From a virus, in the IMG/VR virus record IMGVR_UViG_3300023184_000107, positions 3,651-67,650 of that record: 64,000 nucleotides of DNA. The stretch is one strand, 5' to 3'. A program made the position numbers and the translations under genes. Below are positions 24,739 to 26,529 of the stretch, one piece after another. Position 1 is the first letter of the stretch, and each line of letters starts with the position of its first letter. The notes under the pieces were generated by a model that searched no databases, was not told where the DNA came from, and saw only the letters and a program-made list of their open reading frames with translations.

Positions 24739-24775
24739 TGACTTGAATTGTGTACTAAAACAATTTATAATAATT

Positions 24776-25015
24776 ACTTAGACAGACAGAATAAGACACA
24801 CCGGCTCTGACCGCAAATATAAAGCTAATACAGAAGCATCAGGTTCGTGTAAGATTCTCGCAGTGCGTTGTTAGTGTAAAACGAGAGGACTAACATAAAA
24901 TGAGGATTGCGACCCTCATTACGCTCAGTCTAAGTATATTCGGGTGGAAAGTGGTTTGGCTGCACAAATACTTCCTTAATTGTTACAAACGAAATCGCCT
25001 AGTAACAGCCCCGAG
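24776..25015 (+). ncRNA. candidate structured ncRNA(s)
   Basis: Non-coding with multiple stems, downstream of a promoter and upstream of tRNA-Glu. Confidence 0.45.
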
Positions 25016-25054
25016 CAGGACTACAGGTCAAGAAAATTTAAGTAAAAGTAATAA

Positions 25055-25130
25055 GGATCTATCGTCTAACGGTTAGGACGGCACTCTTTCACAGTGCAAA
25101 CGAGGGGTTCGATTCCCCCTAGATCTACCA
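25055..25130 (+). tRNA. tRNA-Glu(UUC)
   Basis: Cloverleaf, TTC, CCA. Confidence 0.9.
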
Positions 25131-25202
25131 ACAAAGACCCTAAGCTGTAGTGGCTGTTACAGGCCACAGTAAATGCAGGTTACCTGCTGCGGCAGCTTTA
25201 AA

Positions 25203-25273
25203 CCATTCTGATGATGGCTCTGGTCAAGCCGAAACCCCAACTAATGCGTTTACGCTAAGTTGCGGGTAAATGG
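25203..25273 (+). ncRNA. type I hammerhead ribozyme
   Basis: Stem I CCAUU/AAUGG, CUGAUGA core, stem II GGCU/AGCC, GAAA, stem III ACCC/GGGU, GUA cleavage triplet. Confidence 0.8.
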
Positions 25274-25357
25274 ATGTATATACCGTTAAGGAGGCGGTTC
25301 CGGCTGTAACCCGGACGTGGCGACACTCTGTTGGATCGTTCCCAACTGCATCCACCA
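25272..25357 (+). tRNA. tRNA-Tyr(GUA)
   Basis: Long variable arm, GTA, A73, CCA; atypical T-loop ATCGTTC. Confidence 0.85.
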
Positions 25358-25504
25358 TTAATTAAGTATCATCAAGGTAACGTGCTAAGACGTTAGCACT
25401 ATACGGGTCAAAGCTGCCGGCGACTGATCCTGACATAACTGCATCGGCATTGAGCCAGTTTAGCGACTATCTCAGAATTTGCACGATGATACTTAATTAA
25501 TGGT
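25355..25504 (+). ncRNA. candidate ncRNA enclosed in a 20-bp inverted repeat
   Basis: CCATTAATTAAGTATCATC...GATGATACTTAATTAATGG with internal stems. Confidence 0.5.
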
Positions 25505-25524: not shown

Positions 25525-26529
25525 ATGCACAGTTTTAACTCAAACATACATCGTGCAGGTTTTGCCTGTAAAATTCAAGAATCACACGATGTGGCTATTG
25601 CTAAATTTGCAGTTAAAACCACAACCATTACCTGGCTTAATGCCCAAACACCAGATCGTGTAGTTGCACGACTGTGGGAACTAATGACCAACAATGTTCA
25701 GGCACTGCGTGCTCAGATTGAGTATGTGGGCAGCCTGCCAGTCAATCAACGTATGTTTAGACTGAGTGGTGACCTATTGCCAGCTTACAGTCATGACCGC
25801 TATATGTGGTTTTACTTTGAGCCAGATGTATTACGCTATCTAGAAAGCAACCTATCTGAGATTGGAAACCTAGCCCGCAGTCTTGACGTGCGGCTTAGCT
25901 TTCATCCAGGTCAGTTTTGCGTAATGGCATCAGATAGTGCTGAAGTAGTAGAGCGCTCAATCACGGAATTTGAGTATCACTGTGACATTATTCGCTATAT
26001 GGGATATGGTCGCAGCTTTCAAGACTTTAAATGCAATGTGCATATTGGTGGCAAGGCTGGGCCTGATGGTATTCGCCGCGCACTTAAACGACTTAGTCGT
26101 GAAGCACACAATTGTTTAACCATTGAAAATGCAGAATACAGTTGGGGTATAGAGCACAGTATTGAACTCATGTTTGACTGTGCCCTAGTACTAGACATAC
26201 ATCATCACTGGATTGCCAGTGGCGAGTATATCTGTGCCACAGACGATCGTGTGCGTGCTGTAACTGAAAGCTGGCGAGGTGTGCGTCCTGTTATACACTA
26301 CAGTGTTAGCAGAGAAAATGTGTTAGTAGACCATGATGCAGATACACTGCCTGATCTAGCTGCACTTAAAAGTGCTGGATTTACCAGCACTAAACTTCGT
26401 GCACACAGCGACTATTACTGGAACTCAGCAGTTAACGAGTGGGCGGCCAGCTTTAGTGCTGATGCCGACATAATGTGCGAAGCCAAACAAAAAAATCTTG
26501 CTGTACAGCAATTTATTAAATTTATCTAA
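25525..26529 (+). CDS. uvsE: UV damage endonuclease
   Basis: GFAC, MFRLS, RLSFHPGQF, NVHIGG, TIEN, VLDIHHH, HYS, RAHSDY, MCEAKQK. Confidence 0.9.
   Translation: MHSFNSNIHRAGFACKIQESHDVAIAKFAVKTTTITWLNAQTPDRVVARLWELMTNNVQALRAQIEYVGSLPVNQRMFRLSGDLLPAYSHDRYMWFYFEPDVLRYLESNLSEIGNLARSLDVRLSFHPGQFCVMASDSAEVVERSITEFEYHCDIIRYMGYGRSFQDFKCNVHIGGKAGPDGIRRALKRLSREAHNCLTIENAEYSWGIEHSIELMFDCALVLDIHHHWIASGEYICATDDRVRAVTESWRGVRPVIHYSVSRENVLVDHDADTLPDLAALKSAGFTSTKLRAHSDYYWNSAVNEWAASFSADADIMCEAKQKNLAVQQFIKFI

What the first reader, a model, noticed from the sequence alone, without database searches (positions are those of the whole stretch)
25203..25357. Hammerhead ribozyme fused to the 5' end of tRNA-Tyr
Seen: CCAUU-CUGAUGA-U-GGCU(CUGGUCA)AGCC-GAA-ACCC.CAACU...AGUUG.C.GGGU-A-AAUGG, a complete type I hammerhead core with one extra U after A9. 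Predicted cleavage is after GUA at 25268, 3 nt before G1 of tRNA-Tyr (25272), and the 3' strand of stem I uses the first two tRNA nucleotides. Known: theta (HDV-like) ribozymes process phage tRNA 3' trailers. Inference: a 5'-side counterpart that trims the tRNA leader, releases the upstream RNA, or acts as a folding switch competing with the acceptor stem.
Basis: partly seen in the sequence, partly recalled or inferred. Interest (0 to 1): 0.85.

Follow-up and report, generated by a model that had tools for sequence, protein, structure and literature searches.

The report
Hammerhead ribozyme abutting phage tRNA-Tyr
A self-cutting hammerhead RNA motif of a little-known variant type really does sit directly in front of the tyrosine tRNA gene of this T5-like lake phage, where it would cut three bases before the tRNA, but cutting is unproven and its relatives in other phages sit before protein genes, not tRNAs.

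Summary
The motif is there exactly as described: stem I 25203-25207/25269-25273, CUGAUGA, an extra U at 25215, stem II, GAA, stem III, and GUA with the predicted cut after 25268. tRNA-Tyr starts at 25272.

It is more than chance. 3 of 1000 shuffled windows give an equally good hit. A covariance model built only from hammerheads of related phages ranks this site first in the window (21.1 bits, E about 0.004).

The extra U is not a defect. 13 compact hammerheads in 10 other viral contigs have the same core, their stems covary, and some share the stem I CCAUU/AAUGG. Rfam 15 misses all of them.

The link to the tRNA is weak:
- None of those 13, and none of 14 long-armed hammerheads of related T5-like phages, abuts a tRNA.
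- A co-occurring strain does keep the block 25135-25357 intact.
- One unrelated contig (L307) has a hammerhead cutting exactly at G-1 of tRNA-His.

Here the cut leaves a 3-nt leader, so RNase P is still needed. The finished tRNA out-competes stem I by 6-8 kcal/mol, and a contig from an RNA library bridges the cut site.

This scan noted hammerhead-tRNA fusions before on other DNA. I found no paper describing them.

The parts
24743..24771 (+). Sigma-70-like promoter (TTGAAT-17-TATAAT), probably the start of the polycistronic RNA that carries tRNA-Glu, the hammerhead and tRNA-Tyr
   Evidence: Consensus scan, 10 of 12 matches. In RNA run X15 a contig end with adapter read-through lies at 24789. 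This is a consensus match only.
25055..25130 (+). tRNA-Glu(UUC), the upstream neighbour
   Evidence: ARAGORN; Rfam tRNA 53 bits. In the related strain, 25012-25134 is replaced by 93 other letters.
25135..25202 (+). GC-rich hairpin block (closing stem around 25142-25198 with two inner hairpins) between tRNA-Glu and the hammerhead. It is conserved together with the hammerhead in the related strain.
   Evidence: Folds (-23.0 kcal/mol for 25131-25202). The strain contig starts matching at 25135, with changes only at 25183 and 25191. No promoter was found inside it.
25203..25207 (+). Hammerhead stem I, 5' strand (CCAUU)
   Evidence: Pairs with 25269-25273. The same stem I occurs in family members L187 and L228.
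25208..25215 (+). Catalytic core C3-A9 (CUGAUGA) plus the extra U between A9 and G10.1
   Evidence: Sequence. Both models align 25215 as an insertion or as the family's U.
25216..25230 (+). Stem II (GGCU/AGCC, with the G10.1-C11.1 pair) and 7-nt loop CUGGUCA
   Evidence: No change in the related strains.
25231..25233 (+). Core G12-A13-A14
   Evidence: Sequence.
25234..25267 (+). Stem III: A15.1-U16.1 plus 3 C-G pairs, bulged C25263, 5 more pairs and an inner hairpin
   Evidence: Pair probability 0.98 in every context tested. All strain differences inside the ribozyme fall here: 25240, an insertion after 25240, 25243 and 25263.
25268..25268 (+). H17 (A of GUA); the predicted self-cleavage is 3' of this base
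   Evidence: Follows from the hammerhead architecture. GUA occurs in natural hammerheads (PMC1636495). Cleavage itself was not shown.
25269..25273 (+). Stem I, 3' strand (AAUGG): a 3-nt tRNA leader plus G1 and G2 of tRNA-Tyr
   Evidence: Overlap with the tRNA start follows.
25272..25357 (+). tRNA-Tyr(GUA), long variable arm, encoded CCA, atypical T loop; the only tRNA-Tyr of the array
   Evidence: ARAGORN. No Rfam tRNA hit. No difference listed in the related strain contigs that cover it.
25355..25504 (+). Long perfect hairpin starting at the CCA end and enclosing a structured insert; a repeated element, not part of the ribozyme
   Evidence: Fold. 98.6% identical at the start of L001. Its core, about 25397-25478, has up to about 6-fold (X3) and about 13-fold (X4) higher word depth than the flanks in the DNA runs.

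Best explanation
This is a genuine type I hammerhead ribozyme of a phage subfamily that carries one extra U between A9 and G10.1. It is embedded in a polycistronic RNA of a T5-like freshwater phage, between tRNA-Glu and tRNA-Tyr.

Most likely mechanism:
1. As the RNA is made, stems I, II and III form. The 5' arm of stem I is CCAUU. The 3' arm is the 3-nt leader AAU plus the first two tRNA bases.
2. The ribozyme cuts after A25268.
3. This severs the upstream RNA (tRNA-Glu trailer, hairpin block and ribozyme body, ending in a 2',3'-cyclic phosphate) from a pre-tRNA-Tyr that starts with 5'-OH AAU.
4. The short stem I then gives way to the acceptor stem, and host RNase P removes the three leftover bases.
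5. Once the tRNA's 3' strand has been transcribed, the acceptor stem wins, so cutting must happen during transcription and is probably incomplete.

The element is the same kind of transcript-punctuating ribozyme that its relatives provide in front of protein genes. Here it has landed in front of a tRNA, plausibly by joining at the shared GG.

Shown: motif, family membership, strain conservation, competing folds. Inferred: cleavage, timing, the RNase P step, the origin.
For: - Motif: complete, and unique in the contig. 3 of 1000 shuffles match its strength.
- Model R1, built from 4 hammerheads of related phages without the window, ranks 25196-25280 first of 128 kb searched (21.1 bits, E 0.0042; next hit 12.5 bits, E 0.83).
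- Extra-U core: 13 compact hammerheads in 10 of 107 pattern-matched viral stretches. 98.5% of cells are paired and 11 of 15 pairs show compensatory changes.
- L187 and L228 share the stem I CCAUU/AAUGG, and one L228 copy also has GUA.
- Model R2, built from those 13, scores the window at 39.7 bits against 14.3 for the next hit. Among the first 100 of the 107 stretches (those given to R2), only 16 hits in 11 loci reach E<=0.01, so the shared core alone does not make a hit.
- Literature passages: an extra base at this position occurs in active natural hammerheads, and a U there raised the rate (PMC3705267; PMC4209133).
- The hammerhead fold is the MFE of the isolated 85 nt and of both strain variants.
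- A related strain in 2 DNA runs and 1 RNA run keeps 25135-25357. Its only changes are in the spacer, distal stem III and the bulge, while both flanks differ.
- No promoter or + strand terminator lies between tRNA-Glu and uvdE.
- Related T5-like phages carry canonical hammerheads in the same tRNA-Glu to uvdE interval.
Against: - No cleavage data exist.
- The contig of RNA run X15 (553 nt, depth 20) runs uninterrupted from 25135 to 25357 across the cut site. Uncut molecules, or carried-over DNA, therefore exist.
- In context the hammerhead fold is not the MFE. It is 1.7 kcal/mol worse with 70 nt upstream and 6.1-7.9 worse once the tRNA is complete, with stem I pair probability 0.00. Canonical controls are 0.5-4.9 worse.
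- No convincing loop II tertiary partner: the best candidate is 4 bp including a G-U, 8 nt beyond stem I, equalled by 391 of 500 shuffles.
- Stem I has only 5 bp.
- R2 is partly circular, because its members were retrieved with 17 core bases copied from the window. The covariation count is inflated, because members were selected by a pairing descriptor.
- Strain variation is too sparse for real covariation: 6 variant events in 223 nt, none compensatory.
- Rfam gives no hit.
Confidence: 0.55

Rival explanations
1. Relic. A once-mobile extra-U hammerhead was joined to the tRNA-Tyr gene by recombination and still looks intact, but it no longer cuts at a useful rate. Host RNase E, RNase III and RNase P do all the processing.
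For: - The tRNA fold out-competes stem I by 6-8 kcal/mol.
- There is no clear tertiary contact.
- A contig from an RNA library bridges the site.
- At 39.7 bits the site scores well below true family members at 55.6-69.
- No relative keeps a hammerhead next to a tRNA.
Against: - Every catalytic base and all three helices are intact.
- The related strain has no change in the core, stems I and II or proximal stem III, while distal stem III has 4 variant events.
- Canonical hammerheads of relatives are also out-competed in context.
Confidence: 0.2
2. Dedicated tRNA device. The hammerhead has been recruited specifically for tRNA-Tyr, either as a 5' counterpart of theta ribozymes that speeds or bypasses host leader processing, or as a kinetic switch in which stem I and the acceptor stem compete, so that cutting gates tRNA-Tyr maturation.
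For: - Stem I shares G1 and G2 with the acceptor stem.
- The hammerhead plus tRNA-Tyr block is kept as a unit in a strain whose flanks differ on both sides.
- L307 shows a canonical hammerhead whose cut is exactly G-1 of tRNA-His.
- Earlier notes of this scan report more such fusions (these are leads only).
Against: - The cut is 3 nt upstream, so RNase P is still required.
- 0 of 13 extra-U relatives and 0 of 14 long-armed relatives abut a tRNA.
- None of the tRNA-Tyr genes examined in 160 related loci (14 by ARAGORN, 3 more by Rfam) has a hammerhead in front.
- Only 1 of 39 pattern matches in my survey was a real fusion.
Confidence: 0.2
3. Chance resemblance in a structured tRNA leader.
For: - 42 of 1000 shuffled windows give some hammerhead-like hit.
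- No Rfam hit.
- This scan covers very many windows.
Against: - Only 3 of 1000 shuffles reach the observed stem lengths.
- An independent model from relatives ranks the site first, E about 0.004.
- It lies on the transcribed strand in a non-coding gap.
- It shares the extra U, stem I and the start of stem III with a covarying family.
- 0 stray descriptor hits in 777,451 nt of related loci.
Confidence: 0.05

Closest known systems
Type I hammerhead ribozymes in phage and prophage intergenic regions (Perreault et al. 2011, PMC3088659; passages read)
   Same: Same catalytic core, three-helix junction and open stem I. They sit inside long phage transcripts, where several copies flank genes and are thought to cut polycistronic RNA. 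The 13 extra-U relatives found here sit 1-55 nt before ORFs in the same way.
   Different: An extra U lies between A9 and G10.1. The passages I read discuss insertions at 6a, 13a and 2a/2b, but not this position. The partner here is a tRNA rather than an ORF. No Rfam 15 model recognises this form.
CChMVd (+) hammerhead with the extra A10, and Penelope-like-element hammerheads with a conserved base between positions 9 and 10.1 (PMC3705267 and PMC4209133, passages; the primary paper, De la Pena and Flores 2001, was not read)
   Same: One additional nucleotide at exactly this position in active natural hammerheads. A U there increased the trans-cleavage rate 3-4 fold according to the review passage.
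   Different: Those are a viroid and eukaryotic retroelements, type III or minimal forms. This is a type I phage ribozyme.
Theta (minimal HDV-like) ribozymes at tRNA 3' trailers of gut phages (PMC10879173; passages read)
   Same: A small self-cleaving ribozyme directly fused to a phage tRNA gene and proposed to process the precursor.
   Different: A different ribozyme class, the opposite side of the tRNA, and a different phage group. Theta ribozymes cut exactly at the tRNA end and are recurrently linked to tRNAs. This one cuts 3 nt away, and its relatives are not tRNA-linked. That paper does not contain the word hammerhead.
Long-armed type I hammerheads of uncultured T5-like freshwater phages
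   Same: Same phage group, same interval between tRNA-Glu and uvdE, same strand, enlarged stem III, all missed by Rfam. The model built from them finds the window site.
   Different: They have the canonical core without the extra U and a different stem I (UCCUU/AAGGA). In some loci they sit behind a promoter at the head of a long non-coding RNA, and none is beside a tRNA start.
Engineered cis-hammerhead-tRNA fusions used to make tRNA transcripts with defined 5' ends (recalled from memory; no call)
   Same: Stem I is formed with the first bases of the tRNA, so that the ribozyme frees the tRNA's 5' side.
   Different: Those are man-made and designed to cut exactly at +1. The natural L307 case does that; the window's copy cuts at -3.

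Membership tests
Hammerhead ribozyme (type I) | Conserved core C3 U4 G5 A6 N7 G8 A9 and G12 A13 A14 | tested here: met
   CUGAUGA at 25208-25214 and GAA at 25231-25233.
Hammerhead ribozyme (type I) | A15.1-U16.1 pair, H17 not G, G10.1-C11.1 closing stem II, N1.1-N2.1 pair | tested here: met
   A25234-U25267, A25268, G25216-C25230, A25269-U25207.
Hammerhead ribozyme (type I) | Three helices around the core, with stem I open | tested here: met
   Stems of 5, 4 and 4+5 bp. This is the MFE of the isolated 85 nt.
Hammerhead ribozyme (type I) | No insertion within the core strands | tested here: not met
   An extra U lies at 25215. The same insertion defines 13 covarying natural hammerheads and is reported as tolerated or beneficial (PMC3705267), so this is a known permissible variant.
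Hammerhead ribozyme (type I) | Tertiary contact between loop II and stem I or its tails | tested here: inconclusive
   Best 3' partner is UGGU/ACCG, 8 nt beyond stem I, not above shuffles (391 of 500). GACC at 25136-25139 could pair with GGUC of loop II, as in the MFE. Family members use varied partners.
Hammerhead ribozyme (type I) | Hit to a curated hammerhead covariance model | tested here: not met
   No hit at gathering score or at E<=10. The test is uninformative, because Rfam also misses the canonical and extra-U hammerheads of other contigs apart from a 20-bit partial hit.
Hammerhead ribozyme (type I) | Site-specific self-cleavage giving 2',3'-cyclic phosphate and 5'-OH ends | not testable with these tools
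   Only assembled contigs of RNA runs were available. One bridges the site.
Extra-U (9a) phage hammerhead subfamily (defined here) | AUU-CUGAUGA-U-GG...CC-GAA-AC core context with covarying stems I-III | tested here: met
   R2 gives 39.7 bits against 14.3 for the next window hit. The score is below the family range of 55.6-69 and the test is partly circular.
tRNA-processing ribozymes (theta-like, but on the 5' side) | Cut coincides with the mature tRNA end | tested here: not met
   The cut is after 25268 and the tRNA starts at 25272, leaving a 3-nt leader. L307, by contrast, cuts exactly at G-1 of tRNA-His.
tRNA-processing ribozymes (theta-like, but on the 5' side) | Adjacency to tRNAs recurs among homologous ribozymes | tested here: not met
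   0 of 13 extra-U and 0 of 14 long-armed relatives have a tRNA start within 10 nt of the cut. None of 14 ARAGORN tRNA-Tyr genes, nor 3 more seen only by Rfam, in 160 related loci has a hammerhead upstream. The adjacency is kept only in a near-identical strain.

The most novel reading that the evidence does not exclude
Phages repeatedly recruit hammerhead ribozymes as built-in 5' processing devices for their tRNAs, the mirror image of theta ribozymes at 3' trailers. On this reading the window's copy is a working member: a co-transcriptional kinetic switch in which stem I borrows the tRNA's first bases, cuts, and then hands them to the acceptor stem. That would make tRNA-Tyr supply less dependent on host endonucleases during infection.
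Probability: 0.25. Interest if true: 0.75.

Novelty: new variant of a known kind. Interest (0 to 1): 0.55.

Why it matters
What most bacterial and phage hammerheads do is still an open question, and the only ribozyme-tRNA partnership in print that I could find is the theta ribozyme on the 3' side. A natural hammerhead interlocked with a tRNA's 5' end gives a clean, testable case: one RNA, a predicted cut, a defined competing fold, and a strain pair. Separately, the session shows that a whole subfamily of phage hammerheads with an extra U in the core, and the long-armed hammerheads of T5-like lake phages, escape Rfam 15. Catalogue-based counts of phage ribozymes are therefore too low. The particular claim made for this window is weaker than it looked, because the cut is not at the tRNA end and the ribozyme's relatives serve protein genes.

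Tried and rejected
- Rfam scans of the window and the site found no hammerhead. I rejected this as evidence once Rfam also missed clear hammerheads elsewhere (a 20-bit partial hit).
- Searches for close homologues of the site found none. The phages BLAST gave only tRNA-Glu matches. The viral contigs pattern gave 0. BLAST of the spacer, hammerhead and tRNA-Tyr against 160 loci gave 0. Metagenome relatives reach at most 72% UvdE identity. L001 (91%) begins at 25357 and lacks the site.
- A MAFFT alignment of the window with the relatives' hammerheads mis-registered the core and was not used.
- Type II and III descriptors found nothing in the window or in the 160 loci.
- The equal spacing from tRNA-Glu to the hammerhead core (78 nt here, 79-87 nt in L273, L286 and L289) is not homology. 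Their spacers hold a promoter and do not align with the window's.
- The pseudoknot test was uninformative, because the tails are low-complexity.
- Rows dropped (38 rows in all):
  - 8 type I rows with minimal stems and spans of 78-211 nt, judged to be chance: L166, L191, L195, L210, two in L212, L230 and L237.
  - 1 type II row in L286.
  - The two compact canonical L212 copies were kept out of the extra-U alignment.
- Of the 4 descriptor hits, only L307 abuts a tRNA.
- RNA runs were available only as contigs, so parts without cover and depth differences say nothing about cleavage. X16 did not cover the site.
- Literature searches for a hammerhead 5' of tRNAs or in phage tRNA arrays found none (plus find in PMC10879173).

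Full report
**Context.** The window is part of a 67,650-nt contig of an uncultured phage. Its DNA polymerase is about 48% identical to those of T5-like phages. It has terminase, head, helicase and ribonucleotide reductase genes. ARAGORN tRNAs and a permuted tmRNA on the + strand between about 24.2 and 36.7 kb. The finding lies between tRNA-Glu (25055-25130) and tRNA-Tyr (25272-25357), just upstream of a UvdE-family gene (25525-26529).

- Stem I: CCAUU 25203-25207 with AAUGG 25269-25273.
- Core: CUGAUGA 25208-25214, then an extra U25215.
- Stem II: GGCU/AGCC around the loop CUGGUCA.
- GAA 25231-25233.
- Stem III: opens with A25234-U25267, has a bulged C25263 and a distal extension.
- Cleavage triplet: GUA, ending at A25268.

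The 3' product would begin AAU-G1, so G1 and G2 of the tRNA are the end of stem I. A descriptor for type I, II and III hammerheads finds only this site on both strands of the window and of the whole contig. 42 of 1000 dinucleotide shuffles give some hit at relaxed thresholds, and 3 of 1000 give one with stems as long as observed.

**Rfam is silent, but that is uninformative.** No hammerhead family reaches gathering score or E<=10 at the site. The same library also fails in three control cases:
- It misses textbook hammerheads in related loci at gathering score.
- On a 291-nt stretch around one of them it gives only a mis-registered 20-bit hit.
- It misses every compact hammerhead of nine other contigs, even at E<=10 on a 751-nt stretch holding three copies.

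**Independent recognition.** Using the UvdE neighbour I fetched 80 related loci from viral contigs and 80 from metagenomes, with 54-91% protein identity.
- Six loci carry a canonical type I hammerhead with an enlarged stem III, on the array strand between tRNA-Glu and uvdE. L043 has a compensatory stem II change. A truncated seventh copy lies at the start of L035.
- A covariance model of four distinct copies, excluding the window (R1), was run over the whole window with filters off. It ranks 25196-25280 first, at 21.1 bits and E 0.0042, against 12.5 bits and E 0.83 for the next hit.

- The full descriptor confirmed 13 compact hammerheads in 10 of them, including four tandem copies in L228.
- In their alignment (A3) 98.5% of cells pair, and 11 of 15 pairs show changes on both sides. 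No shuffle or slid register comes close. Members had been selected for pairing, which inflates this count.
- L187 and the L228 copies share the window's stem I CCAUU/AAUGG. One L228 copy also shares ACCCC...GGGGU-A.
- The model built from these 13 (R2) scores the window at 39.7 bits, against 14.3 for the next hit.
- That score is partly circular, since the retrieval pattern copied 17 core bases from the window. However, among the first 100 of the 107 stretches only 16 hits in 11 loci reach E<=0.01, so the stems contribute. The window scores below the family range of 55.6-69 bits.
- Literature passages agree that a base between A9 and G10.1 occurs in active natural hammerheads, that a U there raised the rate of the CChMVd ribozyme (PMC3705267; PMC4209133), and that GUA is a natural triplet (PMC1636495).

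**Is it tied to the tRNA?** Mostly not, by comparison.
- All 13 extra-U relatives are followed within 1-55 nt by an ORF of at least 40 aa, and none by a tRNA.
- The 14 descriptor-confirmed long-armed hammerheads of T5-like relatives have their nearest same-strand downstream tRNA at 2479 nt or more, or have none in the locus.
- Some of these sit about 35 nt behind a promoter, at the head of a long ORF-free RNA.
- None of the tRNA-Tyr genes examined in the 160 loci has a hammerhead in front: 14 called by ARAGORN and 3 more seen only by Rfam.

Two observations point the other way.
- Contigs of a co-occurring strain in two lake DNA runs and one RNA run match 25135-25357 almost perfectly. The differences are at 25183, 25191, 25240 (or an insertion after it), 25243 and 25263. 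Meanwhile 25012-25134 is replaced by 93 other letters, and the sequence after 25357 differs. So the hairpin block, hammerhead and tRNA-Tyr travel as one unit.
- All changes inside the ribozyme fall in distal stem III or the bulge, and both variants still fold as a hammerhead. With six events in 223 nt this is weak evidence.
- A pattern joining a hammerhead core to a common tRNA D-arm matched 39 viral stretches. One of them, L307, is a complete canonical hammerhead whose cut lies exactly before G-1 of a tRNA-His. Natural hammerhead-tRNA 5' fusions therefore exist elsewhere, and there with an exact cut.

**Mechanism and its limits.**
- A sigma-70-like promoter at 24743-24771 lies near an adapter-marked RNA end at 24789. 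There is no promoter or + strand terminator between tRNA-Glu and uvdE. The ribozyme is therefore internal to a polycistronic RNA.
- In isolation the hammerhead fold is the MFE at -21.0 kcal/mol.
- With 70 nt of upstream RNA it is 1.7 kcal/mol worse than a fold that uses the hairpin CCAUU/GAUGG. The CCAUU-bearing family members (L187, L228) have the bases for the same competing hairpin.
- Once the tRNA is complete the hammerhead fold is 6.1-7.9 kcal/mol worse, because the acceptor stem reclaims G1 and G2. Canonical controls lie 0.5-4.9 kcal/mol above their MFE in the same test.
- The ribozyme therefore has to act while the roughly 80 nt of tRNA body are being transcribed, so incomplete cutting is expected. 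This fits, but does not prove, the uninterrupted contig across the site in RNA run X15, which could also be carried-over DNA.
- I found no convincing loop II tertiary partner.
- After cutting, a 3-nt 5'-OH leader remains, so RNase P is still needed. Its poorer handling of very short leaders is recalled from memory, not tested here.

**Verdict.**
- That this is a real hammerhead of the extra-U subfamily I hold at about 0.85.
- That it cuts usefully in vivo, about 0.6.
- That it is specialised for tRNA-Tyr rather than being a general transcript-punctuating ribozyme that landed beside a tRNA, about 0.2-0.35.

**Novelty.** I found no paper describing a natural hammerhead on the 5' side of a tRNA. 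This rests on searches; the theta-ribozyme paper does not contain the word hammerhead. Earlier AI notes of this scan report such fusions on other DNA, and long-armed hammerheads in T5-like lake phages. I treated these as leads. My own calls confirm the second point and supply one independent example of the first.

Noticed in passing
window 25355-25504; L001 1-147; L039 about 1300-1447: A 20-bp perfect hairpin that starts at the CCA end of tRNA-Tyr encloses a structured insert of about 110 nt. The element is 98.6% identical at the start of L001. Its core (about 25397-25478) has up to about 6-fold (X3) and about 13-fold (X4) higher word depth than the flanks in lake DNA runs, and it is joined to other flanks there. 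A look-alike with the same inner motifs sits in the ORF-free region of L039. No Rfam hit.
   Followed up: partly
L307 (minus strand of the locus; hammerhead at 1186-1244 in reverse-complement coordinates): A canonical type I hammerhead whose stem I is CCACC/GGUGG. The cut falls exactly before G-1 of a tRNA-His(GUG) with a C73 discriminator. This would be a natural ribozyme-made tRNA 5' end in an unrelated 166-kb viral contig.
   Followed up: partly
L228 (four copies), L181 (two), L187, L202, L211, L212, L221, L233, L246: A subfamily of compact phage hammerheads with an extra U between A9 and G10.1, each 1-55 nt upstream of an ORF. In three L228 copies loop II pairs with the tail just after stem I (5-6 bp). 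Rfam 15 recognises none of them, nor the two canonical copies in L212.
   Followed up: yes
L273, L286, L289 (and L281, L283, L291, L293): In these T5-like relatives the long-armed hammerhead core starts 79-87 nt after tRNA-Glu and about 35 nt after a TTGAAT-17-TATAAT promoter, at the head of a long ORF-free RNA. There the ribozyme would strip the 5' leader from a non-coding RNA.
   Followed up: partly
L020, L028, L038 and L043, upstream of tRNA-Tyr; L006, L007 and L032 likewise: Structured elements of about 90-120 nt, closed by long stems, lie directly in front of tRNA-Tyr in relatives where the window has the hammerhead. Their nature is unknown.
   Followed up: no
window 25272-25357: The only tRNA-Tyr of the array has a T loop AUCGUUC (A54 and U58 in place of T54 and A58) and is not found by Rfam's tRNA model even at E<=10. 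It is nevertheless unchanged in the related strain contigs.
   Followed up: partly
window 24789 and 25805: Contigs of RNA run X15 end here with Illumina adapter read-through, which marks discrete molecule ends. The first is 18 nt after the -10 box of the promoter-like site at 24743-24771.
   Followed up: no
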